Made by a program: the position numbers and the translations under genes. DNA of 64,000 nucleotides, from the IMG/VR virus record IMGVR_UViG_3300022187_000028, positions 2,758 through 66,757 of that record; one strand, written 5' to 3'. The notes beneath the pieces were generated by a model. It saw nothing but the letters and a program-made list of their open reading frames with translations. It did not search any database and was not told where the DNA came from. Every line of letters starts with the position of its first letter. Position 1 is the stretch's first letter. This DNA comes from a virus. Of this stretch, positions 1,896-29,674 are shown piece by piece.

Positions 1896-2113
1896 TTGTT
1901 TTCTGTCCTTCTTCTTTTCTTAGCAGGTAGTTGAACTACATCGGGAGTATCTGCACTACTTCTAGTAGGGCGATGAGTAGTATCGGGTGGTAGTCCCCCT
2001 ACAGAATAGTCTCTAGATTTCTTAGTAGTTCTATCGTCTGCGGCCCTTTGGGAACGAACTTGTGCTAGTTCCTTTGCCAATCTTCTTTCTTTTTGTGCAA
2101 TGTCTTCTTTCAT
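1889..2113 (-). CDS. Small basic hypothetical protein
   Basis: 74 aa ORF whose start overlaps the portal stop codon. Confidence 0.65.
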   Translation of the reverse strand: MKEDIAQKERRLAKELAQVRSQRAADDRTTKKSRDYSVGGLPPDTTHRPTRSSADTPDVVQLPAKKRRRTENKW

Positions 2114-3805: not shown

Positions 3806-4093
3806 TCACCATAATTTCTTACAGGCTAGACATTTTGGAGTAGTAATTCTTCCTTTACATTGGTCGCAATTATGCCTTGCTCGGAAATTTTTCCTACGGG
3901 CGGGGTCTTTATGAGTCCCTCCACCACGATTTTTTCCCTTGCGTTTGTAGTTGCCATATCCTTTAGCACCTGCATGAATCTTTTTACCTTCGTGAGTAAG
4001 CATCATAATTTTCTTACCTTTTCTATCGGAACGATAAACACGGCCTACTCTCATATCCTTTTTGTCTTTCTTTAGTACTTCTTCCCAACTCAT
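3806..4093 (-). CDS. MSW-tag protein; basic domain KKIHAGAKGY...HKDPARRKNFRARHNC
   Basis: Probable start MSWEEVLKK at 4093; domain resembles small basic proteins of large dsDNA viruses. Confidence 0.75.
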   Translation of the reverse strand: MSWEEVLKKDKKDMRVGRVYRSDRKGKKIMMLTHEGKKIHAGAKGYGNYKRKGKNRGGGTHKDPARRKNFRARHNCDQCKGRITTPKCLACKKLW

Positions 4094-4103
4094 AGCATAT
4101 CCC

Positions 4104-4505
4104 TCAAATCTCTTCACTATAATCTGGAAGATTATCGTACCTTTCACTCTCGAATTTCTTACCGCCATCGGGCATGTCATTCATATTATAGTAAGGCTTC
4201 TTGCTTTTTCGCCTATCTCTATGACTTACCATAGCCCTATCCATCATGGCCTTGTGAAATCGAACATAAGGTCCCCATATTTTTCTTTTTTGACCTCCCC
4301 CATAGGTCTGCAATCGCCTACCCGTTCTGTCATAATAATACACCCTAATTTTATAGTCAAATTCTTTGACTCTTTTTAATTCCTTTTCATGGTACTCGGC
4401 TTGATTCAAAAAGGTAGAGCGATAAAACTCATCTCTATTTGTTGGTATTCCCTTATGCGGGACTGTTTCTTCATTGTCGTTTTTTAGTACTTCTTCCCAA
4501 CTCAT
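4104..4505 (-). CDS. MSW-tag hypothetical protein
   Basis: Starts MSWEEVLKN; 133 aa. Confidence 0.75.
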   Translation of the reverse strand: MSWEEVLKNDNEETVPHKGIPTNRDEFYRSTFLNQAEYHEKELKRVKEFDYKIRVYYYDRTGRRLQTYGGGQKRKIWGPYVRFHKAMMDRAMVSHRDRRKSKKPYYNMNDMPDGGKKFESERYDNLPDYSEEI

Positions 4506-4514
4506 AACAATTCC

Positions 4515-4832
4515 TCACAAAAACTCATAAATAGTCACTGGTTTATACCCAATAAATTTACCATCAATAACAATTCTTTGCTTTTTTCGTTTAGTTCCTA
4601 ACAGATTTCTTTTCTTCAAATGATTTATGATATAATTTCTTATCCTATCTGATTTAATATTTTTATGTAGTTTAGCATACCTGTCTCTTACATCTTCTAT
4701 GAATGTATGGAATTCATTTGGATTTAGGACTTTCCCTTTTAATCGTTGGGCTTCTTGAATAGCAACCCTGTTTAGAAAGCCGTAGTCGATTTTCCTTGCG
4801 CCCCCCCGCTTAATTACTTCTTCCCAACTCAT
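4515..4832 (-). CDS. MSW-tag basic hypothetical protein, possible winged helix
   Basis: Starts MSWEEVIKR; 105 aa. Confidence 0.75.
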   Translation of the reverse strand: MSWEEVIKRGGARKIDYGFLNRVAIQEAQRLKGKVLNPNEFHTFIEDVRDRYAKLHKNIKSDRIRNYIINHLKKRNLLGTKRKKQRIVIDGKFIGYKPVTIYEFL

Positions 4833-5230
4833 TTTTCTTTCCTCAATTGGTTTTCTTTAGAAGTCTTATCATCATCAATTGGGCCACCTTTAGCCCAAGT
4901 GTAGCAAGTTCTTGCAGAATGACATTTGAAATCGTGCATCCAACAGTAGCCTAATCGACCATCTTCATCTGTGTTTAGTGGCATACATTCGTCCATTCTT
5001 GGAGATATGTCAAACGCAATACAATTACTGCAATTAGATTCCTTAGCAACATCAGCAGTAGTATTCCACTTCTTAGCATATTCTTCCCAATACTTTTCGT
5101 CGCTTAGATTGAGAGGACCGTATTGAATATGCTTTTCTTTTACTGCCCTATCTCTATTCTTAGTATTGAGTTTCAAATCTTGAGTAGCCAAAGGGCATTC
5201 TAGTTTTTTTAGAATAATAGTCCAATCCAT
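4829..5230 (-). CDS. MSW-tag Cys-rich protein with HiPIP-like Cys spacing
   Basis: Starts MDWTIILKK; CSNCIAF...GYC...CYTW. Confidence 0.7.
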   Translation of the reverse strand: MDWTIILKKLECPLATQDLKLNTKNRDRAVKEKHIQYGPLNLSDEKYWEEYAKKWNTTADVAKESNCSNCIAFDISPRMDECMPLNTDEDGRLGYCWMHDFKCHSARTCYTWAKGGPIDDDKTSKENQLRKEK

Positions 5231-5239
5231 AATATCACC

Positions 5240-5770
5240 TTAAAGTGTATCGCTAATCTCTTCCCATTTTTTGGTTTCTTTTAGGTAAGAAACTAATTTG
5301 TTGTAGTCTGCTTGTGCAAATAAATACCTTTCTTGTTCAGGATTGAATTCCGGAAGATACTCTTTTAATTTACGCAAATCTCTTGATTCGATTATATCCT
5401 TCTCAACATCTTTAGATATAGTTTTCTTTCCTTTAAAATTCCCAATATAATACCTGTCTTCGTAATCCATATTTCTGTGTCGAATATAGATACTAACATC
5501 TGTAAATACATTGCCGTTATATATTTCTATTTCTCCCGAAGCACTTAATTCAAAGTCTTTAGGAAAACCCATATCAAACTTTTCTATTGGAATATGGCTG
5601 TCTGCTTTTTCCTCAAATAAATAAAAATCCCCATTGTGCGGGAAATGAGAAAAATACAGTAGGCTAGGTTTAAGAAAGCCCTTTCCTAGCAAAGCCTTGT
5701 TTATCTCCTGTTTAGATTTATCATCTAAATCATTATAGTCAGTTTTTTTCAAAATATTAGTCCAACTCAT
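5240..5770 (-). CDS. MSW-tag hypothetical protein, paralog of 16395..17162
   Basis: Starts MSWTNILKK; shares DYNDLDDKSKQEI and ADYNKLVxYLKETxKWEEIS. Confidence 0.78.
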   Translation of the reverse strand: MSWTNILKKTDYNDLDDKSKQEINKALLGKGFLKPSLLYFSHFPHNGDFYLFEEKADSHIPIEKFDMGFPKDFELSASGEIEIYNGNVFTDVSIYIRHRNMDYEDRYYIGNFKGKKTISKDVEKDIIESRDLRKLKEYLPEFNPEQERYLFAQADYNKLVSYLKETKKWEEISDTL

Positions 5771-6150
5771 GCTGTAAATGGCCCCCTTCTTTTACTACTT
5801 GGTTTGTGAGTGTAAATATCTCCATCAGTGTGAATGTAAATTTTCTTTCTTCTAACGAGGCCATCTATGGCTCTTTTTAGAGTTTTAGTGTCAGCAATAC
5901 TCTTTAGATTTTTCATACCTAAAGCACCACCTTCTTTCTTAATTTCAGCGAGAATCAATTTCTCCACCTTTGCTAATTCTCCTTTATTCAACAAATCAAA
6001 ATCTTCACGGCTGATTTTGCCATCTTTATTTCTATCTAAGTGCTTACTTTGTTTAGGTGTCAATTTCTTATTTACACATTCTTCACAGTTGCATGGCTTA
6101 CCCATCTTTTCTGTTCCGCAGTGTGCCTTTACTATGTCCTTCCAACTCAT
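5767..6150 (-). CDS. MSW-tag protein with EF-hand-like loop and C-terminal winged helix
   Basis: Starts MSWKDIVKA; DRNKDGKISRED matches an EF-hand loop. Confidence 0.72.
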   Translation of the reverse strand: MSWKDIVKAHCGTEKMGKPCNCEECVNKKLTPKQSKHLDRNKDGKISREDFDLLNKGELAKVEKLILAEIKKEGGALGMKNLKSIADTKTLKRAIDGLVRRKKIYIHTDGDIYTHKPSSKRRGPFTA

Positions 6151-6545
6151 GCCCCTCTTCTCCTTTTGTATGTTTTACATGCGGCACAGGTTGGCCTACA
6201 TCTTTGTTTAGTTCCTTTAGAAGCGTCTTTACGACCACAAGGTTTTGTTCCCTTTTTATCATCTTCACATGATTGACAAGAAACCCAACCCTTTGCTTTA
6301 CCACTTCCTCCTCTTCTGTTGAACCAGCCATGTAATCCTGATTCTTTTTCTGCTTTGAAATTATCTCCACCTTTCTTGACTTTTCCTTTAGTTCCCTTTC
6401 TACATTGAACCATAAAGCCGGATTTGTAGGCTGAACTTTTCATTCCGTATTTTTTATCTGCTAGTTTAGCGCACCTATCTTTAGGCTCGCCTTTACTATT
6501 ATGGGTGGCAGTGGCCTTAACTTTTAGAATCTCTTGCCAAGTCAT
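6147..6545 (-). CDS. MSW-tag basic Cys-rich protein
   Basis: Starts MTWQEILKV; SAYKSGFMVQCRK and GWF...PCGR...CRP motifs resemble small proteins of large dsDNA viruses. Confidence 0.72.
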   Translation of the reverse strand: MTWQEILKVKATATHNSKGEPKDRCAKLADKKYGMKSSAYKSGFMVQCRKGTKGKVKKGGDNFKAEKESGLHGWFNRRGGSGKAKGWVSCQSCEDDKKGTKPCGRKDASKGTKQRCRPTCAACKTYKRRRGA

Positions 6546-6642
6546 TTCCTTTCACCTCCCAACATTTTTTGCAGTATCCAAATGGTCTTAAATCTATAAC
6601 ATCACAAGTATAACATTGACCACAATATTTCAAATAAAACAC

Positions 6643-8259
6643 CTAACGATTTTCCTCTGTAAATAGTTGCTTTTGACTTTTACCATATTTGGACAAAACT
6701 TCTTCAATTTTATTTTTAGCAAAACCAGCACTAATCATTGTCATTTCATCTTCGCTACTTTCTTCATCTTTCATACCAGCATCTAAGAAAGACATGATAA
6801 CATCTTCATCATCTTTATCTATAACTGTCTTTCTTAGTATTTCTTTTACTTTTCTATAGTAGGCTTTGAATGAAGTATCTCCAAATTCTTTCTTAGCAAT
6901 CATTCCGCCAATGTTTTCCATTTCATCCATAACAGACATTTTACAATTATCTTGGTATTTTGAAATATCGTCTACATAAATACCTTCTTTAGCAAAATCA
7001 AAACCTACATGGTCTTTGTGATTCTCCCATTTCATTAACTTGAAAATCTCATCACAACGGCTTTTGTACCATTCCGCCTTCTTGTAAGATTTCTTCATTC
7101 TAATAAGTTCCAATAAAAGATTAGCATTACCTTTCTTCATTCTAAAGTGAGGCAGACACTTAGTTAATAGTTCTGTCACATCACTTTGAGAATAGAAATT
7201 TAGACGATTCACTGGCCGTGTGTCTTGTGGAGATTTTTGGTCTAAGTGTAATTTACCAATACCTCCCAAAGCCTTGTGTATTTCAGTCATAAATGCCTTG
7301 CCTCTATCTCCTGTGGCTACTAGACCAACTCTAGGGTTGTGATTCCTATCCATAGTAATATAGCCGTCCGAATCAATAAAAGCGGCAGTATAAGCCCAAA
7401 CATTCTTCTTTATTTCCGAATCTAAGGTGAAGTATCTTCCCGAAACAGAAGTGACTTCTAAAGACTTAGCCATCTTAGAAATAGAGTGCCATGAATTCCT
7501 GTCGTATAATTTAGAAGGCATCCTATCATGTAGTTCTCTCGCTGATATTCCTTGATTGTCTTTGACTTGCTTCACGATATACTCTCTAGTTTCTTCCTTG
7601 ATTGATTTCTTTAGAGAAGAAGATGATATGTCCTTGATATGTTTCCTAAACTCTCTCTTAGCCAAATTCATTTCTTTCGATAATAGTGAGTATTGTTTTC
7701 CATAACTAGTGTCTTTCAAATCTAATTCTGCTTCCCAATACTTGCATATTGAGTCAATAACTCTCCTTCTTTGAGATGCTTCTTTCATGCTGTGTAATTT
7801 TAGAAGGTCATTCTCATCAAACTTCATTTTCATAAATGGCTCTCTGTATGGAGTAAGCCAATAAATACTCTTGACGCACTTTGTAATGTGTTCGGAGTAG
7901 CCATCAATAATAGCATCAATGCTCTTAGTCATTCTATCTCTTGATTCTCCTTTTAGACTTCTGCGCTCTTTTCTTAGAGCCTTGACAACATTAGGAACTT
8001 CTTCGCCATAATACATCTGCTTCTTAGGGAAAGATTCAATGTGTCTTTTTGCTTGAGAAGCATTGAGTTTAAATTCTGTAGAAATTTTAGAAACTAGTTC
8101 ATGTTCGGAAACAATAGAAAGTTCATTCGATAAACTGAGAGCGATTTTATCATCTAATAGACTCTTAGCATCTTCCAAGTCATTCTCTGCCTCTTCTTCT
8201 AAAGCGGCGACCTGTTCTAATCTAGTGCTAGCCTCTCTTAATTCATCTGGCGTTGGCAT
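6643..8259 (-). CDS. Protein with long helical N-terminus, HTH and a LAGLIDADG endonuclease-like domain
   Basis: YTAAFIDSDG motif followed by a typical LAGLIDADG beta-sheet region. Confidence 0.75.
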   Translation of the reverse strand: MPTPDELREASTRLEQVAALEEEAENDLEDAKSLLDDKIALSLSNELSIVSEHELVSKISTEFKLNASQAKRHIESFPKKQMYYGEEVPNVVKALRKERRSLKGESRDRMTKSIDAIIDGYSEHITKCVKSIYWLTPYREPFMKMKFDENDLLKLHSMKEASQRRRVIDSICKYWEAELDLKDTSYGKQYSLLSKEMNLAKREFRKHIKDISSSSLKKSIKEETREYIVKQVKDNQGISARELHDRMPSKLYDRNSWHSISKMAKSLEVTSVSGRYFTLDSEIKKNVWAYTAAFIDSDGYITMDRNHNPRVGLVATGDRGKAFMTEIHKALGGIGKLHLDQKSPQDTRPVNRLNFYSQSDVTELLTKCLPHFRMKKGNANLLLELIRMKKSYKKAEWYKSRCDEIFKLMKWENHKDHVGFDFAKEGIYVDDISKYQDNCKMSVMDEMENIGGMIAKKEFGDTSFKAYYRKVKEILRKTVIDKDDEDVIMSFLDAGMKDEESSEDEMTMISAGFAKNKIEEVLSKYGKSQKQLFTEENR

Positions 8260-8268
8260 AATTTTCCC

Positions 8269-9702
8269 TCAAAAGTTCAGTCCCATTATACCCATGCCCC
8301 TATTATTTATAGGCGCATCAAATATCCCCAAATCATCTAACAATAAGAAGTTTTCACTGATGGTCTTAGTAGCGGCATTAGCCAATGCTAAACTCATTAC
8401 CATATCGTCGTGCGCCCCAACTCCCTCAAATTTGCCCTTAGAAGTAATAGAAAACATAGAGAGTTCTTCTATTAGAGCAGAAGTGACTCTTCTACTTTCT
8501 TCATTAGCATAAGGTAGGTGTATCTTCTCATTCTCAAAATTCATCTGTAGATTCAAAATAATGTCCTGTTTCTTTTTCCTTGTAGTATTAAAATCGTGAA
8601 CATTCAAATCGGAAATATTTCTAAGTTCTTGAGTAAAGGATTTAGCGAATACATTTGTTTCAAATAAGATTACTTCGGGTTGGAATATTTTTCCTATTAG
8701 CCTAACCTTCTGTAAATTTTCTCTAAATTCTACATTCTTAGCCCTATCAATATAAACGACATTTTTGTTATCATTCTCATCTACTTCCAATACTGTGATT
8801 ACATTGTAGTCACCATCTGTAGAAATAGCAGGGTCAATACCAACATAGTACTTGTAGCCCTCTCTACGAGTAGGTTTCAATACCAAGTTTTTATTCTTGG
8901 CTCGCTCTAAATATTCGGGATTGAATAGAGAAGTACCTGTAGATACAGGAACACAAAGATACTCTCTTGTAAATTTAAGAGAGCCTATTTCTGCCTTTCT
9001 AGCCATGAGAGCATCATAGTCCCAACGATTAGGCCAAAGAGGTTCATTAAGAGCGTTAAAGCAAGGATACTTTCTAACGGTATATGCTTCGTTCTCCTCT
9101 AGTTGAGTGTAAATATCTGTATAACTGAACGGAGTTCCAATGACTCTAAGGGAAGCGGAGTGGTGTAAAGTTGGTATCATGTCACCATAAAACCAATCAG
9201 TGACTTTTTGAATTGCAGTCAAACTAAACTCCTTCAAAGGGTCGTCAATAATAATCTCTTGAGGGTGAAGACCACGAATCTGTGAACCAACCGAACGCTC
9301 AAGAATTTGATTTCCATTGGTGAGGGTAATGTTTCCAATAGCCCAACCCTTAGCAGGTTTGAAATGTTTAATTGTAGGGTTATTGAATACCTTATCAATG
9401 TCCCTCATGTGAACCATAGTCTGCTTTTGGTTAGAGGAAATGTAGAGCATTTGGTATGGAGGAGGTTGAAATATTAAATTCCAAACAACCCATGAGTGCA
9501 TGAAGACAGACTTTCCGTGACCCCGACTACAAATAATTACTGTTCTTTGGGTTTGTCCCATTAACTCAAGCCATTCTTGTTGATGGCTTGCGAAATCCCA
9601 ACCTAGAACATTTTCAAAGAAATAAGGAAATGAATTCTTAGATAGTTCTAAGTCCATTTGCCGTTCTAAGTTTAACCCTGCAATGTCAGACATATCGTTC
9701 AC
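8269..9702 (-). CDS. terL: Terminase large subunit
   Basis: Walker A SRGHGKS, Walker B IIIDD, nuclease motifs GIDPA and HDDMVMS. Confidence 0.93.
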   Translation of the reverse strand: MNDMSDIAGLNLERQMDLELSKNSFPYFFENVLGWDFASHQQEWLELMGQTQRTVIICSRGHGKSVFMHSWVVWNLIFQPPPYQMLYISSNQKQTMVHMRDIDKVFNNPTIKHFKPAKGWAIGNITLTNGNQILERSVGSQIRGLHPQEIIIDDPLKEFSLTAIQKVTDWFYGDMIPTLHHSASLRVIGTPFSYTDIYTQLEENEAYTVRKYPCFNALNEPLWPNRWDYDALMARKAEIGSLKFTREYLCVPVSTGTSLFNPEYLERAKNKNLVLKPTRREGYKYYVGIDPAISTDGDYNVITVLEVDENDNKNVVYIDRAKNVEFRENLQKVRLIGKIFQPEVILFETNVFAKSFTQELRNISDLNVHDFNTTRKKKQDIILNLQMNFENEKIHLPYANEESRRVTSALIEELSMFSITSKGKFEGVGAHDDMVMSLALANAATKTISENFLLLDDLGIFDAPINNRGMGIMGLNF

Positions 9703-9713
9703 CCCTTCTTCTA

Positions 9714-10040
9714 CTATTCTTGTTCTTTTATGAAATCGACCTTTCTTTTAAAAGCAACATAAAAATTCGACAAAGCCTGTCTAGTATCAAAAATCTCATC
9801 GAATGGCCAATCGTCCATATAATCTTCCATCTTGGTAATTTGCCTAAGAATAAAAAATTCAATGTCTTCTTCGTAGTTTTCTTCTTCAAGTACTCTTTTA
9901 ATATCCGATAACCTACCTGCAAACGACTCCCAATGACCGCCATATTGATTATGTCCTTGTCGGATTTTGTTTTCTAAATCCTCGTATCTTTCTAATAGGG
10001 TTTCTTTGGTTTCAAACTTTAATATCCCTTTCCAACTCAT
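9714..10040 (-). CDS. MSW-tag acidic hypothetical protein
   Basis: MSWKGILKF preceded by GGTGATTGAC. Confidence 0.75.
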   Translation of the reverse strand: MSWKGILKFETKETLLERYEDLENKIRQGHNQYGGHWESFAGRLSDIKRVLEEENYEEDIEFFILRQITKMEDYMDDWPFDEIFDTRQALSNFYVAFKRKVDFIKEQE

Positions 10041-10045
10041 GTCAA

Positions 10046-10516
10046 TCACCGCCTAAATCTACCAAACATTCCTTTTTTGGGTTGTGGCTTTTGCACTTGT
10101 TGTTTTAATCTATTTAGGTAGTTTTGTGCGGCGTTTATATCAAAATAAGAATTAGCAAATTCTACGCTTTCCATTCCAGCGTTATCAACAATCCTCATAA
10201 TAGAATCTAATAGAGTTTCATGTTCTTTATCATAATTTCCTACTAATCCGAACTTTCCGGCCATTCCTCTAGCCTGTTGTTTATGGTTATTGTCTTGGTA
10301 TTCGTTCTTAAAAAGAATAGTTTTACCTAAAAATTTAATCCCAACATCATACCAATCAGTTTCTTTAGATTCCGGTTTTTGCATTAGTTTTGATTTGCGA
10401 GCCATATTCCAAACATATTCAAGGTCGCCACTGTTTGTATTAGTCCATCCTTGAGGACTATACCAAACCCCTACTTCTTGAGGTTGCGTGTTTTTCAATA
10501 TGTTTTTCCAACTCAT
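10046..10516 (-). CDS. MSW-tag hypothetical protein
   Basis: MSWKNILKN preceded by the same GGTGATTGAC. Confidence 0.75.
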   Translation of the reverse strand: MSWKNILKNTQPQEVGVWYSPQGWTNTNSGDLEYVWNMARKSKLMQKPESKETDWYDVGIKFLGKTILFKNEYQDNNHKQQARGMAGKFGLVGNYDKEHETLLDSIMRIVDNAGMESVEFANSYFDINAAQNYLNRLKQQVQKPQPKKGMFGRFRR

Positions 10517-10521
10517 GTCAA

Positions 10522-14804: not shown

Positions 14805-14853
14805 ATCGTTTCCCCGAATAAAGGCAATAGTCCACTCTATAATAAATGAACTG

Positions 14854-15015
14854 TCAATCTAACTTTGTCTGCCTTGTTGAAGTATCTTCCTTCGGCGGCG
14901 GAGTTTTCTTGGGTTCATTTCCCCATTCTTCTGCTGGAATTGTAGATACGGTGGCACCTTCTGTAAGTTTTTTGGGGAGTTTGGTTTGTCTTTTGAGAAC
15001 ACTTTTCCAACTCAT
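14854..15015 (-). CDS. MSW-tag 53 aa peptide, not in the ORF track
   Basis: Hand translation MSWKSVLKRQTKLPKK...TRQTKLD*; GGAG SD upstream. Confidence 0.7.
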   Translation of the reverse strand: MSWKSVLKRQTKLPKKLTEGATVSTIPAEEWGNEPKKTPPPKEDTSTRQTKLD

Positions 15016-15026
15016 TGTAATTTCTC

Positions 15027-15344
15027 CTACATCAATCTCTTTGTTTCAATCAAATGTAAATACTGTTCTCTTAATCCCATCTTTGAAGTCACAGCCTTTG
15101 CGAGTTTCTTCAAATTGTTTTGAAAACTAAAAAATTCAGGAGAGTAAAGGTCACTTAACTTATCCTTATCCTCCACCCTTTCGTAGTATTCATCAAATTT
15201 ATTCAATAGAGCCTCACCTGCTTGTTTTAATTTAGGGTCTTCATTGTAAGTCATAAAGAAAAGTAGTTCATGAACATGGGCGTGCAAAGGAGCATCCCCG
15301 TCCCTAACATACCAAGCACTTTTCAATATGGTTTTCCAACTCAT
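15027..15344 (-). CDS. MSW-tag hypothetical protein
   Basis: Starts MSWKTILKS. Confidence 0.75.
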   Translation of the reverse strand: MSWKTILKSAWYVRDGDAPLHAHVHELLFFMTYNEDPKLKQAGEALLNKFDEYYERVEDKDKLSDLYSPEFFSFQNNLKKLAKAVTSKMGLREQYLHLIETKRLM

Positions 15345-15994
15345 TGTAATCTCTCCTGCATCTTCTGTTTAATATCAAGCCAAATCTCAGGATTGTTCTG
15401 TGCTAGCACTTCTTGAACAACTTGCATCTGTGCAACAATAATTGTATCTTGTCGCTTGTGGACAAGTTTTCCTTTGAACTCCATCATGTATTTCAAAGAC
15501 TCACGAACTTCTCTAGCCAACTTCACTAGAGCGTCTAATTCCTTAGCATCTAAATCATCTCTAGATGCTATCTCGGTGATTTTATCATCGAGCAATTGAA
15601 TGTTATTTGATAGCATATCCACCTCATTCAAATCCTTCTTGGCAATAATAGCCGCCGCAGACTTTTGAACAACGGGCTGTAAATGGTGCTTAACATGGCG
15701 ATGGACTTGAGCCTTAGAAATTCCAAGCCCTACACTGACCTCCTCGGCTGTGATAAGACCCTCATGTAATTGTCTCTCGTATTCCGACCTCATTGGGTCT
15801 ACACAAATGGCACACTTTGGATTACTACTTTGCACATATTCTCCCATGTGATTCCTTTGATGCTGTGCGGAAGTACCGCTTCTCCAGTTCATCTTTTCAT
15901 CTAATTCATCGGGAGTAATAGTAAGAGATTCTAAATCGGCCTCCATAGAATCAACATCACTGTGTTGACAAAAGGCACAACTCTTTCTTCTCAT
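15341..15994 (-). CDS. Tandem CxxC-HTH-HxxxH Zn-finger protein with coiled-coil tail; candidate terminase small subunit
   Basis: Two repeats (CAFC...HQRNH, CAIC...HVKHH); helical C-terminus; upstream of terL. Confidence 0.55.
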   Translation of the reverse strand: MRRKSCAFCQHSDVDSMEADLESLTITPDELDEKMNWRSGTSAQHQRNHMGEYVQSSNPKCAICVDPMRSEYERQLHEGLITAEEVSVGLGISKAQVHRHVKHHLQPVVQKSAAAIIAKKDLNEVDMLSNNIQLLDDKITEIASRDDLDAKELDALVKLAREVRESLKYMMEFKGKLVHKRQDTIIVAQMQVVQEVLAQNNPEIWLDIKQKMQERLQ

Positions 15995-16003
15995 AATAAT
16001 TCC

Positions 16004-16384
16004 TCAAAGATATTTTAGTCCTTTCTGTATTCTTCTCAACATTTCAAGGCTATGTTTTTTGTCTAAATCATTTTCAACAACTTTATACCCATCATTGTAT
16101 GTGTATTCTGCTAAGGCAAAATCTCCAGCATCGTCTTTGAATTCTATAGTATAGTACCCTTCATCCATCTCAAAAATTTCTTCTTCTGTTAAATCTTCCT
16201 CGCCTTCATACATGTCTTGAAAATCAATTATGGTTTCAACTACTCCAGATTCAAAATAACCATCTTCATAATCTTCTCGCATTTTATCTTCACCGAATCT
16301 TTCTAATTCGGTGGCAATCATCTCTAGTAAATCTTCTTTTAAATCGCTTTCTAAATCGTTCTTTAATATTTTTTTCCAATTCAT
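16004..16384 (-). CDS. MSW-tag highly acidic protein
   Basis: MNWKKILKN start with GGTGA SD. Confidence 0.72.
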   Translation of the reverse strand: MNWKKILKNDLESDLKEDLLEMIATELERFGEDKMREDYEDGYFESGVVETIIDFQDMYEGEEDLTEEEIFEMDEGYYTIEFKDDAGDFALAEYTYNDGYKVVENDLDKKHSLEMLRRIQKGLKYL

Positions 16385-16394
16385 AATAATCACC

Positions 16395-17162
16395 TTATGG
16401 TAGTCCACCTAAAGTTTCCGAAACAATCAACATAGCAGTAGGGAATTTTCTTTTCAAATCACCTTCATTCCATGAAGTTTCCTTATTTGTTCTCAAGTAT
16501 TCTAGAAGTTTGTAAAACTCTTGAGCCGTTCCTATAGACGATTCATCATCTCTAGAATAAGACTGTTCAAAATTTTGACTAGCATAATCTTCTGCATCTT
16601 CTAGCCAGTTATCAACTTCTTTACTGTGACTGACTTTGGGAAGTTTCATCATTTTATCTTCGATGTGGCTAATCTCTTCCCATTTGTTAGTTTCTTTTAG
16701 ATAGCCAACTAGTTTATTATAGTCGGCTCCCTCAAACATTCTACTTATTTTTTCATGCTCAAAATCGGGCACTAACATTTGTTCTTCTATTGTTTGAATA
16801 TCTAAATCCCCTGTTATTTCGAGTACATCTTTCACAGACTCATCTCCTCTAAAACCTCCAAAATAATAACTTTCTTTTTTATTCCTTTTATTTCTAATAA
16901 AAACATCAACATTTGTAATTAAAAACATTTCATCTAGTTGCATACTTCCAATGGCAAATAATTCAAAATAGTCGGGGAACCCCATATCCAATTCTTTTAT
17001 CGAACTAGTGGCTGATTCATCATAAATAGGGAAATCCCCAAAAAAGTCATTTAGGGTAGGTTCAAGATAATCTCTTCCTATCAAGGAATATTTTATTTCC
17101 TGTTTAGATTTATCATCTAAATCGTTATAATCAACTCTTTTCAATATATGTTTCCAACTCAT
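16395..17162 (-). CDS. MSW-tag protein, paralog of 5240..5770 with an extra C-terminal domain
   Basis: Starts MSWKHILKR. Confidence 0.75.
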   Translation of the reverse strand: MSWKHILKRVDYNDLDDKSKQEIKYSLIGRDYLEPTLNDFFGDFPIYDESATSSIKELDMGFPDYFELFAIGSMQLDEMFLITNVDVFIRNKRNKKESYYFGGFRGDESVKDVLEITGDLDIQTIEEQMLVPDFEHEKISRMFEGADYNKLVGYLKETNKWEEISHIEDKMMKLPKVSHSKEVDNWLEDAEDYASQNFEQSYSRDDESSIGTAQEFYKLLEYLRTNKETSWNEGDLKRKFPTAMLIVSETLGGLP

Positions 17163-18133
17163 AGCAACACTTCCTTCCAACTTTTAATAACTGGACTAAC
17201 CTTTACTCTCATGTTCGACTTCATGTAATCTTTAATCAATTTACGAGTCTTAGCCGGAGTCAACTCGATTGTGAATTCAGTAATAGTTCCTCCCAAGTCG
17301 GGAACTTTCATGTATCTAGATAGCATCTTTTGTGCCTTACCTGTAGGTGGAACCTTGAATGATTTACCGGACAGTAGCCTCATAACTCTCCCTGTACTTA
17401 CTCCTTCTTCTGTTCTTGAAGTAGAAATAGCACGACCCAATCTCTTTTTAAAATCGGGAATGGTTTGGAGAGTTGCGGCAGGTTTAGAAGTTGTAATCGT
17501 AGCGATGTAGTTTTGGTCGTCAATATCTTCAATTGCTTTATTCAAAACATCAACCAATCCAACAGGAACTAAATCTCCTCCATAAAGGGCTTGGTAAATT
17601 GGCGGAGTAGCGGTATTTACTTTATCACTAACCCACCCATCTTTTTGTCTATCGGCAGTACCGTGTTTCTTAGCGTAGAATGTAGAAAGGTAGTGTCCAT
17701 AGACTTTCTCCATTTCTACACCTCTAGCGTAAGCCCCTGTCTGTCGGTTATACTTCTTAGGAATTGAGAATACGATATTTTGAGGATTCAAACTAGCATC
17801 GTCTTTTAGCCCTTCGAGGTCATTAACAATTGCTTCTAGAGTTTCAGCATCCTCTTCAAAGAAAATTCCGTTAGCCCTGTCAACTAACATCTTCCTAATT
17901 CTTCTAAGCATGGTATGTGCGCCGGAATTTCCATCATTAGGAGAACCCTTTCTAGGACTAGTGACATGGTTTTCAACTGCGTACAGTAAAGAACCTTTCT
18001 TCATGCCGGAGTTTGCACCTCTGCATTTTTTCTCCCAATCCTCAAAATCTTTCTTGAATTTGATAACTCCACCAACGGTTTCGATAACAGCGTCACCGAT
18101 GCTGGCAGTATTCTTATTCACATCTTTAGGCAT
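17159..18133 (-). CDS. Hypothetical protein ending in tag-like KSWKEVLL
   Basis: 324 aa ORF coupled at both ends. Confidence 0.7.
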   Translation of the reverse strand: MPKDVNKNTASIGDAVIETVGGVIKFKKDFEDWEKKCRGANSGMKKGSLLYAVENHVTSPRKGSPNDGNSGAHTMLRRIRKMLVDRANGIFFEEDAETLEAIVNDLEGLKDDASLNPQNIVFSIPKKYNRQTGAYARGVEMEKVYGHYLSTFYAKKHGTADRQKDGWVSDKVNTATPPIYQALYGGDLVPVGLVDVLNKAIEDIDDQNYIATITTSKPAATLQTIPDFKKRLGRAISTSRTEEGVSTGRVMRLLSGKSFKVPPTGKAQKMLSRYMKVPDLGGTITEFTIELTPAKTRKLIKDYMKSNMRVKVSPVIKSWKEVLL

Positions 18134-18879
18134 TACTCATCCTTCCTTTTCTTTCTTCTGCCATAAGTAGGTTTGAATAATTTAGCATGTGCTGGAGCAG
18201 TAGTAGTCACGGCTCCTGCCATTCTCTCAAGGTTTTCACTATTAACATCTTCCTTAGAATTCTCTTCCTTTTTACGCCTATATTCTCTAACTGGCCCTTT
18301 TTTTCTTTCAGCATACCTTTCTCTGCTTCGCTGATTTTTCCTTTCTCTATATTCGGGGTCATTCCGGTTTTCTCTTTTTCTTTCCCTTTCCAGCCTTTGC
18401 CGGTTTTCTCTATATTCGGGGTCATTAGCATATTTCCTTTTCAATGCTTCCCTGTTATACTGTAATATTCTTTTCCTATATTCGGGGTCATTAGCATATC
18501 TTTCTTTTCTTCTTTCATATGTTCTTTTATTAGTTTGTTCCAGATATTCTGAATTTATTTGCTCCAATTTTGTTATAAATGCTTCATATTGTTTTGATTC
18601 TGCTAAATCTATAAGTGCTTTAAATTGATTTTCAGTAATCGCTTCTGTTAATTTGTTATTAAGAGCATTAGTTAAACTTCTGGAAGGGGATAATTTTTTA
18701 GAATCTGCTATTGGAATACCAAATACCTCTACAAGAAACCTTTGGAAATCATTCGGTCTCTTTAAAATTTCCCAAGCCTTTTTCATAGCAGGGTCTTCGA
18801 GACTATTAGGAACCCACACGCCATATGTTGTAGCATCTCTACGACTCAGTTCTATTTTTAATATATCTTGCCAACTCAT
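18133..18879 (-). CDS. MSW-tag protein with three NDPEYR repeats
   Basis: Starts MSWQDILKI; Arg/Glu-rich repeats. Confidence 0.72.
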   Translation of the reverse strand: MSWQDILKIELSRRDATTYGVWVPNSLEDPAMKKAWEILKRPNDFQRFLVEVFGIPIADSKKLSPSRSLTNALNNKLTEAITENQFKALIDLAESKQYEAFITKLEQINSEYLEQTNKRTYERRKERYANDPEYRKRILQYNREALKRKYANDPEYRENRQRLERERKRENRNDPEYRERKNQRSRERYAERKKGPVREYRRKKEENSKEDVNSENLERMAGAVTTTAPAHAKLFKPTYGRRKKRKDE

Positions 18880-19142
18880 TTCTTTCGACCTCTTTGTGGA
18901 TTAGGAGGTAGTCTGCCTTTCTTTGGTTTCTTTCTTCTTTTGGTAGGTGTTTTATCAGTTTCTAAATCACGAATTAAGTTAGCATCTGCTTCTCTTCTTG
19001 CTATCTTTGCACCCATATCTCGACGAAATTCTTCCCGACGCTTTTCTTCCCTTTTTAGGTACTCATTACGCCTTTGAATTTTTTCTCTCTTGGCATCCAT
19101 CTTATCGGGGTCATATGCCTTTAGTGTATCTTTCCAACTCAT
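18876..19142 (-). CDS. MSW-tag basic protein
   Basis: Starts MSWKDTLKA. Confidence 0.72.
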   Translation of the reverse strand: MSWKDTLKAYDPDKMDAKREKIQRRNEYLKREEKRREEFRRDMGAKIARREADANLIRDLETDKTPTKRRKKPKKGRLPPNPQRGRKK

Positions 19143-19143
19143 T

Positions 19144-19602
19144 TCAAATCACCGGATACCTAAACATCGGCAATTTACTAAGTTCAGCATACATAGGCTT
19201 GTTCATTATATCCTGTACTTGAGAATAAGAAGTCACCTTATCCCCTAGCCTAGCCGCCACCCTTTCTACCTTTTTCCTAGACTCTTCATCTAGAGGATTC
19301 AATAATGTAATTCTAGGCTTACCTCTAGTATGCTTATTCCTCTCTTGTAATAACTTTCCATAAATTCCCTGTCCTGTGTGGTTGGGGCTAACATAGGAGT
19401 TTCCTACGAAAAAGAATGCTCCCATGTCCTTATAGGAAGTAAAGCCCAAAACTTCACCCTCATCATTTACTTCACTAACGAGGTTTAGTGGGCTTACCTT
19501 AGTTGGATAGCCTTTATCACTAGCAGTTCTAAAATTTGGCATATTCTCCGAAACCGCAGATTCAGTTAGAACCTTGACTTCCTTGAGAATATCTTGCCAC
19601 AT
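19144..19602 (-). CDS. MSW-tag GNAT-family acetyltransferase-like protein
   Basis: Starts MWQDILKE; YVSPNHTGQGIYGKLL matches GNAT motif A. Confidence 0.7.
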   Translation of the reverse strand: MWQDILKEVKVLTESAVSENMPNFRTASDKGYPTKVSPLNLVSEVNDEGEVLGFTSYKDMGAFFFVGNSYVSPNHTGQGIYGKLLQERNKHTRGKPRITLLNPLDEESRKKVERVAARLGDKVTSYSQVQDIMNKPMYAELSKLPMFRYPVI

Positions 19603-19603
19603 T

Positions 19604-19846
19604 TCAATCCCTCTTTAATGAATAGTAATAGGTAGGAGATAGATAGGGTTGTCTTTTGTTAATCCAATCGGCATTGTTCAAGAATTTCCTTAAAGTAGCG
19701 TCTTTGAATCTACCAATTCCTCTTTGTGCCAATGAAGACTTAATTCCTCCCAAAGCAATTTCATCTACATTCTCTAAAGTGTCAGCGACGGCTTTCACTA
19801 TGCTAGTGCGAATGCCCTCATGTGTTAGAGTGTCTTTCCAAGACAT
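19604..19846 (-). CDS. MSW-tag small protein, possible winged helix
   Basis: Starts MSWKDTL. Confidence 0.7.
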   Translation of the reverse strand: MSWKDTLTHEGIRTSIVKAVADTLENVDEIALGGIKSSLAQRGIGRFKDATLRKFLNNADWINKRQPYLSPTYYYSLKRD

Positions 19847-19848
19847 AA

Positions 19849-20616
19849 CTACAACCTCAAATTTCTTTCAATGATGGGAACCAATTCTTTTAATGATGGG
19901 CTAGATGCAATGACAGCATTTCTTTTGCTGATATGATATTGTCCACCATGCGATTTAACTTTCAAGAAATCCTTACCATAGTCTAATTTTAATTCGGGAT
20001 TACCCTTTGCCCGACTAGATGTATGGCTAGAATAAATCTCTCCTCCTAGTTTTTCTTGGAAGTGTTCTAGGAATGCTCTAGGTCCGAAGAATTTCAAAAT
20101 AGATTTTCTTAGCATAGGAAACTTATCTCGGTTTCTTTTAGAAAGTTGAGTATCGACATAGTACCCTGCCGTACTTATGGAATATATTTCCCTATCAAGT
20201 TCTCTAAGAGCCGGAACATAATTCACCTTGTTTAAATATTTATCAATTCTCAAAATAATAGAGGACATTTCATTTTTCATCTCTTCTGTCACTCCTTCGT
20301 AATTTTCCATCATCTCTTGAGCGGCTTCGGGATATTGTTCCTTTATATCTTCAGCATCTTGTTTTTGCTGTTCTCGAAACTGTGCTTCTCCAACAAGAGA
20401 TTCTAGAGCCTTAAGTTCTTTGAGTACTGCCTCTTTATTTTCCCTCGTTCTTTTTCGGTCTGCCTTACCTTTTTCTCCACCTGTTTCTTGACTGCGCTGA
20501 CTTGTTCTTTGTTCAGCAGTTCTAGTATCTACTGCTGGCCGTGACATTGGCCTTGGTGCTTCCCTCTTATGAGGTGTCCAATTCTTATCTCTCTTGAGGA
20601 TAGTTCTCCAAGACAT
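19849..20616 (-). CDS. MSW-tag protein, probably two domains
   Basis: Starts MSWRTILKR; internal RKSILKF. Confidence 0.72.
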   Translation of the reverse strand: MSWRTILKRDKNWTPHKREAPRPMSRPAVDTRTAEQRTSQRSQETGGEKGKADRKRTRENKEAVLKELKALESLVGEAQFREQQKQDAEDIKEQYPEAAQEMMENYEGVTEEMKNEMSSIILRIDKYLNKVNYVPALRELDREIYSISTAGYYVDTQLSKRNRDKFPMLRKSILKFFGPRAFLEHFQEKLGGEIYSSHTSSRAKGNPELKLDYGKDFLKVKSHGGQYHISKRNAVIASSPSLKELVPIIERNLRL

Positions 20617-20618
20617 AA

Positions 20619-20846
20619 TCAAACCTCCGCATAAAACGATTCGCTGTTTGGCATATTAACCTGCCTAGCAATAACTTTCAAAGAGCCGCCCATCATTTGT
20701 AGGGCGTTCTTGAATAGGGAAATTTCCCTATCTACAATTTCCTTTTCTTCTTGTGATAGTTTGGAAGTATTGACAGAATTCATAGTCTTCTCCATTTCTC
20801 TTAGGAGGGACAGTACTCTCTTTACTTCTGCTTCCATAGTAATCAC
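20619..20846 (-). CDS. Small helical hypothetical protein
   Basis: 75 aa in operon context. Confidence 0.6.
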   Translation of the reverse strand: MITMEAEVKRVLSLLREMEKTMNSVNTSKLSQEEKEIVDREISLFKNALQMMGGSLKVIARQVNMPNSESFYAEV

Positions 20847-20852
20847 CTAATT

Positions 20853-21140
20853 TTAAACAGGTTCTGCTTCACTCATAATTAAACGCAAAGCATACAAAGG
20901 CCCAATCCTTTTCTTACCGGCGAGTTCCATTGCGCTTTGTAGTTGTTCTTCACTGGCGTTAAATGCTTGAATTTTTTCTACTGCCATCTCAATTACATCT
21001 TGTGTAATGTCGTATTCATGGAATAGTGTTGCCGTGATAAAATCCATTGGTCCCATCGTCATTAGACCTTTCTTTATTTCAGCCTCTTTCAAGAGTTTCT
21101 TTGCTTCACGAATATTTCTAAAATCTTTGCTGTTCATCAA
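20853..21140 (-). CDS. Hypothetical protein
   Basis: 95 aa in operon context. Confidence 0.6.
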   Translation of the reverse strand: MMNSKDFRNIREAKKLLKEAEIKKGLMTMGPMDFITATLFHEYDITQDVIEMAVEKIQAFNASEEQLQSAMELAGKKRIGPLYALRLIMSEAEPV

Positions 21141-21143
21141 TAA

Positions 21144-21476
21144 TCACCGTAATTGTTCTTCTGCTTCAATCCATTCTTCGCCCAAGTCATACAACTCATC
21201 CAAAGCATCTTCGCTTATTTTCAATAACTTACGACCCAGTTCGGGCATTTCCTTTAGAGAATTTTCTAACTCTCTACCATAGTAGGCATAATCCGATACT
21301 GCCTTAATGAAACCTTCAATGTTCTTTTTATCTACTTTCATAGCCATCTCTAAACTATCTTTAGAACCCCTTCTCTCTTCAGCCTCTCTCTTCATCCGAG
21401 GACTGACATTCATAAAACTCGTCATGTCTTCGGGGTCTTCGCCAAGTATCTTTCTTAATTCATCTTTCCAAGTCAT
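21144..21476 (-). CDS. MSW-tag protein, first gene of the head-module operon
   Basis: Starts MTWKDELRK with GGAG SD. Confidence 0.7.
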   Translation of the reverse strand: MTWKDELRKILGEDPEDMTSFMNVSPRMKREAEERRGSKDSLEMAMKVDKKNIEGFIKAVSDYAYYGRELENSLKEMPELGRKLLKISEDALDELYDLGEEWIEAEEQLR

Positions 21477-29584: not shown

Positions 29585-29586
29585 AT

Positions 29587-29669: not shown

Positions 29670-29674
29670 CCTAC

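What the first reader, a model, noticed from the sequence alone, without database searches (positions are those of the whole stretch)
3806..21476. About 19 unrelated head-module genes share an N-terminal MSWxxILK tag: candidate capsid-targeting and cleavage system
Seen: genes starting at 4093, 4505, 4832, 5230, 5770, 6150, 6545, 10040, 10516, 15015, 15344, 16384, 17162, 18879, 19142, 19602, 19846, 20616 and 21476 begin with close variants of M-[S/T/D/N]-W-x-x-[I/V/T]-L-K. After about residue 8 the proteins are unrelated, apart from one paralog pair. I saw no such start among the early, replication or tail genes. Ser2 is AGT in most copies but TCT at 19846 and 20616, which points to selection on the peptide rather than on a DNA site. 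Known: T4 internal proteins share an N-terminal capsid-targeting sequence that loads them into the prohead and is removed by the prohead protease. Inference: this is an archaeal-virus equivalent, an amphipathic 8-residue tag ending in Lys that packages a variable library of cargo proteins for delivery with the DNA.
Basis: partly seen in the sequence, partly recalled or inferred. Interest (0 to 1): 0.92.

Follow-up and report, generated by a model that had tools for sequence, protein, structure and literature searches.

The report
Shared address tag on magrovirus proteins
Nineteen otherwise unrelated small genes next to the packaging genes of this ocean archaeal virus start with the same eight-residue peptide, which matches the tail of the virus group's own capsid protease-scaffold protein, so it is probably a docking label that loads changeable proteins into the virus head, though no experiment has shown this.

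Summary
In the window, 18 ORFs on the minus strand (starts 4093-20616) begin M-[S/T/D/N]-W-x-x-[I/V/T]-[L/I/V]-K. A looser 19th starts at 21476. None is found elsewhere. Their bodies are unrelated apart from one paralogue pair.

The contig is a magrovirus, a tailed virus of Marine Group II archaea. The tag runs through the lineage. It occurs in 77 of 80 TerL-related contigs, on 514 unique proteins in 201 BLAST clusters. In six genomes it sits on 85 of 406 ORFs on the TerL strand and 0 of 379 on the other strand.

Selection acts on the peptide. Leu7 uses all six codons at background rates, and within families changes at positions 7-8 are mostly synonymous. The AGT bias at Ser2 largely reflects ATGA start/stop overlaps.

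The same motif ends the S78 prohead protease-scaffold protein (M-S-W-S-D-I-H-K) and two other core proteins of this clade.

Best reading: a terminal docking peptide that loads cargo into the procapsid. Neither loading nor cleavage has been shown. A second magrovirus clade did not show the tail/tag match.

This scan has already noted the same tag on at least eight other magrovirus genomes. I found nothing about it in print.

The parts
3806..4093 (-). Tagged gene, 95 aa, MSWEEVLK. The body is DUF5754.
   Evidence: Pfam DUF5754 scores 32.3 bits against a cut-off of 27.4, on residues 18-49.
4104..4505 (-). Tagged gene, 133 aa, MSWEEVLK. No family found.
4515..4832 (-). Tagged gene, 105 aa, MSWEEVIK.
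4829..5230 (-). Tagged gene, 133 aa, MDWTIILK. The body is a Cys-rich domain that GenBank annotates as 'high potential iron-sulfur protein' in bacterial phages.
   Evidence: 1545 relatives at E<=0.001. In one search the phage homologues align from residue 12-22 onward. One search shows they lack the tag. In A2, W3 and K8 are invariant in 33 sequences.
5240..5770 (-). Tagged gene, 176 aa, MSWTNILK. Paralogue of 16395..17162.
5767..6150 (-). Tagged gene, 127 aa, MSWKDIVK. It has an EF-hand-like loop that scores below the Pfam cut-off.
6147..6545 (-). Tagged gene, 132 aa, MTWQEILK. The body is DUF5872-like.
   Evidence: Pfam scores 21 bits against a cut-off of 27.5. Flavobacterium and Roseobacter phage homologues align from residue 7-23 onward and lack the tag.
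9714..10040 (-). Tagged gene, 108 aa, MSWKGILK.
10046..10516 (-). Tagged gene, 156 aa, MSWKNILK. It is absent from the closest complete relative, G006. It is flanked by a repeat of RBS plus tag.
   Evidence: One search shows the same 22 nt (GGTGATTGAC plus ATGAGTTGGAAA) at 10040 and 10516. In one search the BLAST blocks overlap by 33 nt across the indel.
14854..15015 (-). Tagged ORF, 53 aa, MSWKSVLK, just upstream of the 623-aa gene.
   Evidence: It is conserved in G006.
15027..15344 (-). Tagged gene, 105 aa, MSWKTILK.
16004..16384 (-). Tagged gene, 126 aa, MNWKKILK. Acidic.
16395..17162 (-). Tagged gene, 255 aa, MSWKHILK. Paralogue of 5240..5770.
17159..18133 (-). Core 324-aa protein that is untagged at its N-terminus and ends in a tag-like tail, KSWKEVLL.
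   Evidence: 22 unique homologues at 25-97% identity all carry the tail motif. K317 and W319 are invariant in 20 aligned sequences. The AF2 model has pLDDT 83.6, with the tail 318-324 below 50. No convincing PDB relative was found.
18133..18879 (-). Tagged gene, 248 aa, MSWQDILK. Very basic, with an Arg/Lys-rich repeat.
18876..19142 (-). Tagged gene, 88 aa, MSWKDTLK. Basic.
19144..19602 (-). Tagged gene, 152 aa, MWQDILK. GNAT-like.
   Evidence: Pfam Acetyltransf_1 scores 19.9 bits against a cut-off of 20.7, just under threshold.
19604..19846 (-). Tag variant, 80 aa, MSWKDTLT.
19849..20616 (-). Tagged gene, 255 aa, MSWRTILK (Ser is TCT).
21144..21476 (-). Loose tag variant, 110 aa, MTWKDELRK.
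   Evidence: Relatives have MTWKDEIKK-type starts.
8269..9702 (-). Terminase large subunit. Context gene, untagged.
   Evidence: phrog_38 at E 1.6e-57.
2113..3756 (-). Portal protein. Context gene, untagged.
   Evidence: phrog_18178 at E 2.3e-67.

Best explanation
The octapeptide M-[S/T/N/D]-W-x-x-I-L-K is a terminal docking peptide. It is probably a short amphipathic helix with W3, I6 and L7 on one face. It has the same pattern as the C-terminal tail of the virus group's own S78 prohead protease-scaffold protein (M-[S/D/N/E]-W-x-x-I-H-K).

Proteins carrying it would therefore bind the site inside the assembling procapsid that recruits the scaffold, most likely on the HK97-fold capsid protein. 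They would be enclosed as cargo. The prohead protease may then remove the tag, and the cargo may enter the host cell with the DNA.

Because the tag-coding DNA and its ribosome site are repeated before each gene, they also act as homology for gaining, losing and swapping cargo genes.

Shown here: peptide-level selection, restriction to the structural strand, great diversity of the cargo, and identity of the motif with the scaffold tail in this clade. Inferred only: binding to the capsid, packaging, cleavage and delivery.
For: (1) The tag is real and far beyond chance. There are 18 strict starts in the window, all on one strand. Across six genomes it sits on 85 of 406 crude ORFs on the TerL strand and 0 of 379 on the other strand.

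(2) It runs through the lineage on unrelated bodies. It occurs in 77 of 80 TerL loci, on 514 unique proteins in 201 BLAST clusters. Conservation stops after residue 8.

(3) Selection is on the peptide.
- With one sequence per family, Leu7 uses TTA 37, TTG 30, CTA 23, CTT 18, CTC 6 and CTG 2. Background fractions are .41/.18/.19/.17/.03/.02.
- Within 66 families, synonymous/non-synonymous differences are .35/.16 at position 7 and .23/.03 at position 8. At positions 9-12 they are .09-.21/.41-.44.

(4) The tag is added to domains that occur without it in bacterial phages.

(5) G006 is the closest complete relative, collinear with 80-96% nucleotide identity. Its protease-scaffold has a Pfam Peptidase_S78 match at 41.3 bits (cut-off 21) on residues 30-183. 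It ends MSWSDIHK plus 8 residues, and a 75-aa protein ends MSWNDIEK plus 8 residues (tail residues read). A tag PSSM ranks these two first and second of 24,947 non-N-terminal 8-mers. The protease tail ranks 2-5 in each of five genomes.

(6) All 78 protease tails recovered from 80 loci (59-99% identity) keep [M/L]-x-W-x-x-[I/V]-H-[K/R].

(7) The 324-aa core protein keeps a tag-like extreme C-terminus in 22 of 22 homologues down to 25% identity. AF2 models that tail as flexible.

(8) Tagged proteins are soluble and charged. Of 66, none has a TM-like segment, median pI is 9.08 and K+R is 20%. Of 587 untagged ORFs, 65 have a TM-like segment, median pI is 5.99 and K+R is 13%.

(9) Known precedents exist.
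- The T4 capsid targeting sequence is the only conserved part of diverse internal proteins (PMC3012670, passages read).
- P1 DarB has an N-terminal capsid signal (PMC9024508, passages).
- Scaffold termini contact the capsid protein's N-arm (PMC12749128, passages).
Against: - There are no virion proteomics, no neo-N-termini and no expression timing for any tagged protein. This virus group is uncultured.
- The window's own contig lacks the capsid and protease genes, so the tail match rests on relatives.
- The covariation test failed. A second magrovirus clade has 111 unique tags of the form [T/S]-A-F-[D/E]-x-A-W-x-[L/I/V]-[L/V]-K. Its protease-scaffold tail does not match that clade's tag PSSM. 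In G009 it ranks 274 of 27,553 with a negative score.
- The scaffold tail has His where the tags have Leu.
- Nineteen or more cargo species per genome is a lot for a roughly 90-kb capsid.
- Tags also occur inside some ORFs. These may be fused genes or cleavage sites rather than docking ends.
- Position 9, the residue after the proposed cut, shows no preference. Nothing here points to a defined cleavage site.
Confidence: 0.5

Rival explanations
1. The motif docks onto a hub other than the capsid shell. Candidates are the portal, the terminase, the viral GroEL-like chaperonin or a host factor. It would organise assembly or host takeover without enclosing the proteins.
For: - The motif works at either end of a protein, as short docking motifs do.
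- The tagged genes cluster around TerL and the portal rather than beside the capsid gene.
- The virus encodes its own chaperonin.
- In the second clade the protease tail is not tag-like.
Against: The protease-scaffold must enter the procapsid, and it carries the motif in 78 of 78 recovered tails. No candidate hub has been identified. No tag occurs on replication-arm proteins.
Confidence: 0.2
2. The motif is mainly a recognition or cleavage signal for the S78 prohead protease or another protease. It would time the activation or removal of late proteins, and packaging would not be the point.
For: - An S78 protease is present in relatives.
- [I/L]-L-K strings recur in the protease-scaffold, at about residues 16-20, at about 178-183 at the end of the protease domain, and near residue 385.
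- Tag-like motifs inside ORFs could be domain junctions.
Against: - There is no residue preference after Lys8.
- The conserved W three to four residues upstream, and the Met, fit a binding helix better than a cleavage site.
- The WRVLK string in the capsid protein proved to be a family-wide structural motif in which K is not conserved.
- The protease acts inside the procapsid, so its substrates would have to get in anyway.
Confidence: 0.12
3. The conservation is really at the DNA or RNA level. The element would serve recombination or translation initiation at gene starts, and the peptide would be a by-product.
For: - Of 7 replaced or inserted segments between G000 and G006, 6 have their 5' junction 9-26 nt inside a tagged gene. 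I worked out these distances by hand, from the gap list and the tag starts. One indel is flanked by a repeat of RBS plus tag.
- Ser2 is AGT in 93 of 104 Ser codons against a background of 25%.
- 75% of 507 tagged genes have A at +4, and 48% have an ATGA start/stop overlap.
Against: - Leu7, Ile6 and Lys8 vary freely among synonymous codons while the residues are kept.
- The same peptide is conserved at C-termini, where no start codon or RBS is involved.
- Untagged genes in the same operons have the same RBS type (and the ORF lists).
- BLAST blocks would run into any conserved tag, so the junction pattern is expected under either view.
Confidence: 0.05
4. The genes are diverged members of one old family, and the tag is the last surviving stretch of common ancestry.
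For: There is one clear paralogue pair in the window. The genes lie in tandem arrays.
Against: There are 201 BLAST clusters, including distinct Pfam families (DUF5754, DUF5872-like, GNAT-like) and a phage 'HiPIP' domain. Homologues of two of these, the 'HiPIP' domain and the DUF5872-like body, were examined in other viruses and lack the tag.
Confidence: 0.03

Closest known systems
Capsid targeting sequence (CTS) of phage T4 internal proteins IPI-III and Alt
   Same: A short N-terminal peptide is the only conserved part of a diverse, fast-changing set of proteins encoded by one virus. In T4 it directs them into the scaffolding core of the prohead (PMC3012670, passages read; PMC9024508, passages).
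   Different: - There is no evidence here of packaging or of removal by the protease.
- The protease here is S78 (HK97 type). By my recollection, T4's gp21 belongs to another family.
- The motif here also works at C-termini and equals the scaffold tail.
- The host is an archaeon.
- The number of tagged families (201 clusters) is, by my recollection, far larger than described for T4.
- I did not compare the sequence with the T4 CTS.
C-terminal tails of scaffolding proteins and of the HK97 gp4 (S78) maturation protease that tether them inside the procapsid
   Same: The magrovirus S78 protease-scaffold ends in a strongly conserved short tail. Scaffold termini are the parts seen contacting the capsid protein's N-arm in 80alpha, P22 and phi29 (PMC12749128, passages). 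I saw Duda, Oh and Hendrix 2013, on encapsidation by the HK97 protease, only as a title in reference lists. Its content is recalled.
   Different: In those systems the tail is not known to be copied onto dozens of unrelated accessory proteins. That copying is what is unusual here.
Encapsulin cargo-loading (targeting) peptides
   Same: A short terminal peptide loads unrelated cargo into an HK97-fold shell, and heterologous proteins fused to it are encapsulated (abstracts of PMC11866011 and PMC8346489 in the listing).
   Different: Encapsulins have no portal, terminase or DNA. They usually load one or a few cargo types. This is a genuine tailed virus.
N-terminal capsid signal of phage P1 DarB
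   Same: An N-terminal signal is sufficient to send a reporter into the capsid of a virus that delivers anti-restriction proteins (PMC9024508, abstract and passages).
   Different: In P1 the paper describes the signal for DarB, and the first 30 residues were needed for sufficiency. Here a fixed 8-mer sits on many proteins.

Membership tests
T4-type capsid-targeting (CTS) cargo system | A short conserved terminal peptide on otherwise unrelated proteins of one virus. | tested here: met
T4-type capsid-targeting (CTS) cargo system | Tagged proteins are present in proheads or virions. | not testable with these tools
   The virus is uncultured and no proteome was available. RNA contigs gave only small fragments.
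T4-type capsid-targeting (CTS) cargo system | The tag is removed by the prohead protease at a defined site. | not testable with these tools
   An S78 protease is present in relatives. There is no residue preference after Lys8.
T4-type capsid-targeting (CTS) cargo system | Homology to the T4 CTS or the T4 gp21 protease. | not tested
   I used no T4 sequence. The protease here matches Peptidase_S78.
HK97-type (S78) protease/scaffold tethering tail | A prohead serine protease of family S78. | tested here: met
   Pfam PF04586 scores 41.3 bits against a cut-off of 21 in the G006 protein. PHROG 'head maturation protease' matches in G003. Neither lies in the window itself, because the contig ends before it.
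HK97-type (S78) protease/scaffold tethering tail | A conserved C-terminal tail on the protease/scaffold. | tested here: met
   78 of 78 recovered tails keep the motif.
HK97-type (S78) protease/scaffold tethering tail | The tail binds the capsid interior. | not testable with these tools
   No experiment or structure is available. The single complex job gave no verdict (see Tried and rejected).
Encapsulin with cargo-loading peptide | An HK97-fold shell protein. | tested here: inconclusive
   PHROG 'major head protein' matches at E 4e-23. Pfam SU10_MCP scores 23.5 bits against a cut-off of 24.1. I did not model the fold.
Encapsulin with cargo-loading peptide | A shell without portal, terminase or genome packaging. 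| tested here: not met
   Portal and TerL are present.
Sec/Tat-type signal peptide | A hydrophobic core of about 10 or more residues after the N-terminus. | tested here: not met
   None of the 66 tagged proteins has a hydrophobic 19-residue window. Positions 9-14 are mostly K, E, D, R and P.

The most novel reading that the evidence does not exclude
Magroviruses, among the most abundant archaeal viruses in the surface ocean, run an open cargo-loading system. Any protein that carries the eight-residue scaffold-tail peptide at either end is taken into the HK97-fold capsid and delivered to the host. More than 200 interchangeable cargo families are swapped by recombination at the tag itself. This would be the largest virion-delivered effector repertoire known. 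It would also be a living link between phage scaffold tails and encapsulin cargo-loading peptides.
Probability: 0.3. Interest if true: 0.85.

Novelty: new variant of a known kind. Interest (0 to 1): 0.7.

Why it matters
If the tag does load proteins into the capsid, three things follow.
- It would show how an abundant, uncultured group of archaeal viruses carries a large and fast-changing set of proteins into its host. These are presumably counter-defence or takeover factors.
- It would give a simple rule for listing those proteins from sequence alone.
- It would offer an eight-residue handle for loading foreign proteins into an HK97-fold shell.

The claim can be tested directly with recombinant capsid protein, protease-scaffold and a tagged reporter, without culturing the host.

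I found no description of the tag in print:
- The main texts of three magrovirus papers hold none of 'N-terminal', 'N-terminus' (not among the terms) or 'motif' in this sense.
- The three papers that hold 'magrovirus', 'N-terminal' and 'motif' together concern other subjects by their titles and abstracts.
- None of the 17 'magroviruses' papers names it in a title or abstract.
- The three papers holding 'capsid targeting' and 'archaeal' are off topic.

Tried and rejected
- Complex prediction. I paired the capsid protein of G006 (alignment A1, 101 rows) with the window's tagged 133-aa protein (A2, 33 rows). The result was 'no answer', with score 0.00 in both runs. This is not evidence either way.
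- AF2 fold of the tagged 133-aa protein. Mean pLDDT was 40.9, so the model is unusable. The helix at residues 3-11 carries no weight.
- 324-aa protein. The AF2 model is good (pLDDT 83.6). Foldseek against the PDB gave a best E of 1.0. VIA-align wide gave a best Z of 8.6 over 89 residues, all generic helical bundles in the stated background range. No function can be assigned.
- ESM Atlas searches of the 324-aa and 623-aa proteins gave no usable hit.
- Pfam and PHROGs gave nothing for the 804-aa, 623-aa, 324-aa and 217-aa proteins or for most tagged bodies.
- The search for homologous proteins on the 133-aa protein listed only close relatives (at least 71% identity among the 120 shown), so it said nothing about untagged distant homologues. 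tblastn against GenBank phages answered that question instead.
- Idea that WRVLK in the capsid protein is a tag-like cleavage site. I rejected it. SGWRV is conserved across distant capsid homologues and the K is not.
- Covariation of the protease tail with the tag in a second clade came out negative. An HMM of the 324-aa family found no homologue in that clade's crude ORFs.
- The positional counterparts of the 623-aa protein in G002 and G005 carry the tag, but homology is only marginal (E 0.04 or worse). I make no claim that 'the same protein' is tagged elsewhere.
- RNA runs. Three runs hold 6-10% of the sampled words. They gave contig fragments at 88-99% likeness, and the joints are unreliable at this likeness. 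Nothing can be said about expression or timing.
- Host check. I wanted to count the motif in Poseidoniales genomes. The one genome-contig scan, with the chaperonin as query, returned only bacterial GroEL-bearing genomes. I got no host handle and the check was not done.
- ORF counts come from a crude longest-ORF caller that includes some spurious ORFs. Some 'internal' motif hits are mis-called starts.

Full report
**What the window is.** The window is 64,000 of the 66,757 bases of a viral contig, G000.
- The minus-strand arm (about 1-24 kb) holds a portal (2113..3756; phrog_18178, E 2.3e-67) and a terminase large subunit (8269..9702; phrog_38, E 1.6e-57).
- The plus-strand arm (26-58 kb) holds a UvrD-type helicase, a protein with a TFIIB-type zinc ribbon, a Cpn60-family chaperonin, an ATP-dependent DNA ligase, an RFC-like clamp loader and a family B DNA polymerase.
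- This gene set, together with roughly 90-97 kb relatives in IMG/VR, matches the magroviruses of Marine Group II archaea as described in PMC5434244 (passages read).
- The contig ends before the capsid protein, the protease and the tail genes.

**The observation.**
- A six-frame scan found 18 strict matches to M-x(0,1)-W-x-x-[IVTLM]-[LVIT]-[KRT] at ORF starts. All lie on the minus strand between 4093 and 20616. One further match is a chance hit in an 11-codon ORF.
- 21476 (MTWKDELRK) is a loose variant.
- Each start has a Shine-Dalgarno-like site upstream.
- Beyond residue 9 the 19 proteins share nothing except one paralogue pair, 5770/17162 (E 1.8e-36), and a marginal hit at E 0.004.

**Distribution.**
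- Of 80 IMG/VR loci around TerL relatives (77-97% identity), 77 have at least one strict tag at an ORF start, always on the TerL strand.
- These loci and five genomes gave 589 hits. They reduce to 514 unique proteins in 201 single-linkage BLAST clusters, the largest with 59 members. Conservation ends abruptly after Lys8.
- Across six complete or near-complete genomes, a crude ORF caller gives 85 tagged of 406 ORFs on the TerL strand and 0 of 379 on the other strand.
- Most tagged genes lie between the divergent regulatory region and the portal, around TerL. In G005 and G006 a few lie among the head-tail genes.
- Tags also occur on large proteins of 602 and 645 aa.

**Peptide or DNA?**
- With one sequence per family, Leu7 uses all six codons in near-background proportions and Lys8 uses both.
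- Within 66 families, differences at positions 7 and 8 are mostly synonymous (.35 vs .16 and .23 vs .03). At positions 9-12 they are mostly non-synonymous (.41-.44). So the peptide is under purifying selection.
AGT makes up 93 of 104 Ser codons against a background of 25%. Position 2 almost always starts with A.
- Of 507 unique tagged genes, 75% have A at +4, against 53% of untagged genes. In 48% the ATG is part of an ATGA overlap with the stop of an open upstream frame. Residue 2 is therefore shaped largely by translational coupling in tightly packed arrays.

**What the bodies are.**
- Pfam finds DUF5754 (above the cut-off), and DUF5872, GNAT and EF-hand (all below it). It finds nothing for the rest.
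- The Cys-rich 133-aa protein has 1545 relatives in metagenomes. It also has homologues annotated 'high potential iron-sulfur protein' in bacterial phages. The DUF5872-like protein has homologues in Flavobacterium and Roseobacter phages. In both cases the alignments start after the tag, and the phage proteins begin differently. The tag is therefore a lineage-specific addition to shared domains.
- Tagged proteins are soluble and charged.

| Property | Tagged (n = 66) | Untagged (n = 587) |
|---|---|---|
| With a TM-like segment | 0 | 65 |
| Median pI | 9.08 | 5.99 |
| K+R | 20% | 13% |

**The link to the scaffold.**
I tested that here.
- The closest complete relative is G006 (89,940 b, collinear with G000 at 80-96% identity). 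It encodes a 401-aa protein upstream of the capsid gene.
- Residues 30-183 of that protein match Peptidase_S78, the HK97 gp4 family, at 41.3 bits against a cut-off of 21. Its acidic C-terminal half ends in M-S-W-S-D-I-H-K followed by eight residues. A 75-aa protein three genes upstream ends in M-S-W-N-D-I-E-K followed by eight residues (tail residues read).
- An eight-column PSSM built from N-terminal tags ranks these two tails first and second among 24,947 non-N-terminal 8-mers of G006. The protease tail ranks second to fifth in each of five genomes.
- All 78 tails recovered from 80 protease loci (59-99% identity) keep [M/L]-[S/D/N/E]-W-x-x-[I/V]-H-[K/R].
- The window's own 324-aa protein (17159..18133) ends K-S-W-K-E-V-L-L. 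All 22 unique homologues, down to 25% identity, keep a K-[S/M/A]-W-x-x-hydrophobic-hydrophobic tail. In 21 of them it is at the extreme C-terminus; in one, seven residues follow. K317 and W319 are invariant. AF2 gives a confident body and a floppy tail.
- Overall, non-N-terminal PSSM hits of at least 12 bits number 13, against 1.25 in shuffles.
- The motif is thus a terminal docking motif that does not depend on which end it sits at, and three core structural-arm proteins share it.

**Interpretation.**
- A protease-scaffold has to be recruited to the inside of the procapsid.
- In other tailed phages the scaffold termini are the parts seen on the capsid protein's N-arm (PMC12749128). For HK97 the protease tail is, by my recollection of Duda et al. 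2013, the encapsidation signal. I saw only that paper's title.
- Copying that tail onto accessory proteins would load them the same way. This is the logic of the T4 CTS (PMC3012670), the P1 DarB signal (PMC9024508) and the encapsulin targeting peptides (abstracts).
- I rate this reading at about 0.5.

**Evidence against, and gaps.**
- Nothing measures packaging, cleavage or delivery.
- The single complex prediction gave no verdict.
- The covariation test did not work. Another magrovirus clade has a 12-residue tag, [T/S]-A-F-[D/E]-x-A-W-x-[L/I/V]-[L/V]-K (111 unique). Its S78 protease-scaffold tail (G-W-R-A-A-E-M-L...) does not score with that clade's tag PSSM. It ranks 274 of 27,553. A few other proteins there do end in tag-like strings.
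- The idea that the capsid protein carries a tag-like cleavage site was rejected.
- There is no preference at position 9 that would suggest a cleavage site.

**Cassette turnover.**
- Between G000 and G006, seven segments in the tagged block are replaced or inserted. In six of them homology resumes 9-26 nt inside a tagged gene, that is, within or at the end of the tag. I worked out these distances by hand, from the gap list and the tag starts.
- The gene 10046..10516 is an insertion relative to G006. It is bounded by the same 22 nt of RBS plus tag.
- Any conserved tag would extend BLAST blocks, so this is only consistent with recombination at the tag. The repeat-flanked indel is the expected product of it.
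- DNA-level homology therefore probably helps to shuffle cargo, but it cannot explain the conservation.

**Standing.**
- The tag is real and abundant. As far as my searches reach, it is undescribed (supplements closed).
- The kind of system it most resembles is known. The variant is unusual in three ways: it is an archaeal virus, the 8-mer is shared with the scaffold tail, and it sits on hundreds of cargo families at either terminus.
- This scan has already reported the same tag on at least eight other magrovirus genomes, so this window adds a further instance rather than a first sighting.

Noticed in passing
window 6643-8259 (-): A 538-aa protein sits between TerL and the tagged array. Its only family hit is PHROG 'HNH endonuclease', E 2.8e-5, on residues 289-407. 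It is conserved in all complete relatives at the same position.
   Followed up: partly
window 37883-39421 (+): The viral chaperonin is GroEL-like rather than thermosome-like. Its best cellular matches in the species-representative genomes are 33-35% identical proteins of Flavobacteria and Paenibacillus. PHROG calls it 'chaperonin groEL'.
   Followed up: partly
window 29510-29750 (+): A cluster of three tRNA genes: Arg-TCT, Leu-TAA and Met-CAT.
   Followed up: no
L106:10179-12665 (G006, - strand): An 828-aa protein just upstream of the protease-scaffold carries an ATP-dependent DNA ligase domain (97.6 bits). This is the ligase embedded in the structural module that PMC5434244 mentions.
   Followed up: no
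L101:1156-1890 (Actinomycetia phage DSL-LC01): The bacterial-phage homologue of the tagged Cys-rich domain is a 244-aa protein. It lies between a 9.9-kb gene and the capsid maturation protease, which is also a head-assembly neighbourhood.
   Followed up: no
window 10522-14804 (-): Two large proteins (804 and 623 aa) between tagged genes and TerL have no family, Atlas or PHROG match. Their positional counterparts in relatives are barely alignable (E 0.04 or worse). Some of the counterparts carry the tag.
   Followed up: partly
L230-L239 (G009, G010), L225-L229 (G012): A second magrovirus clade uses a different, 12-residue tag, [T/S]-A-F-[D/E]-x-A-W-x-[L/I/V]-[L/V]-K. It occurs at N-termini and sometimes inside ORFs.
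   Followed up: partly
window 17159-18133 (-): The 324-aa core protein folds confidently (pLDDT 83.6, pTM 0.78) into an alpha/beta structure with no convincing relative in the PDB.
   Followed up: yes
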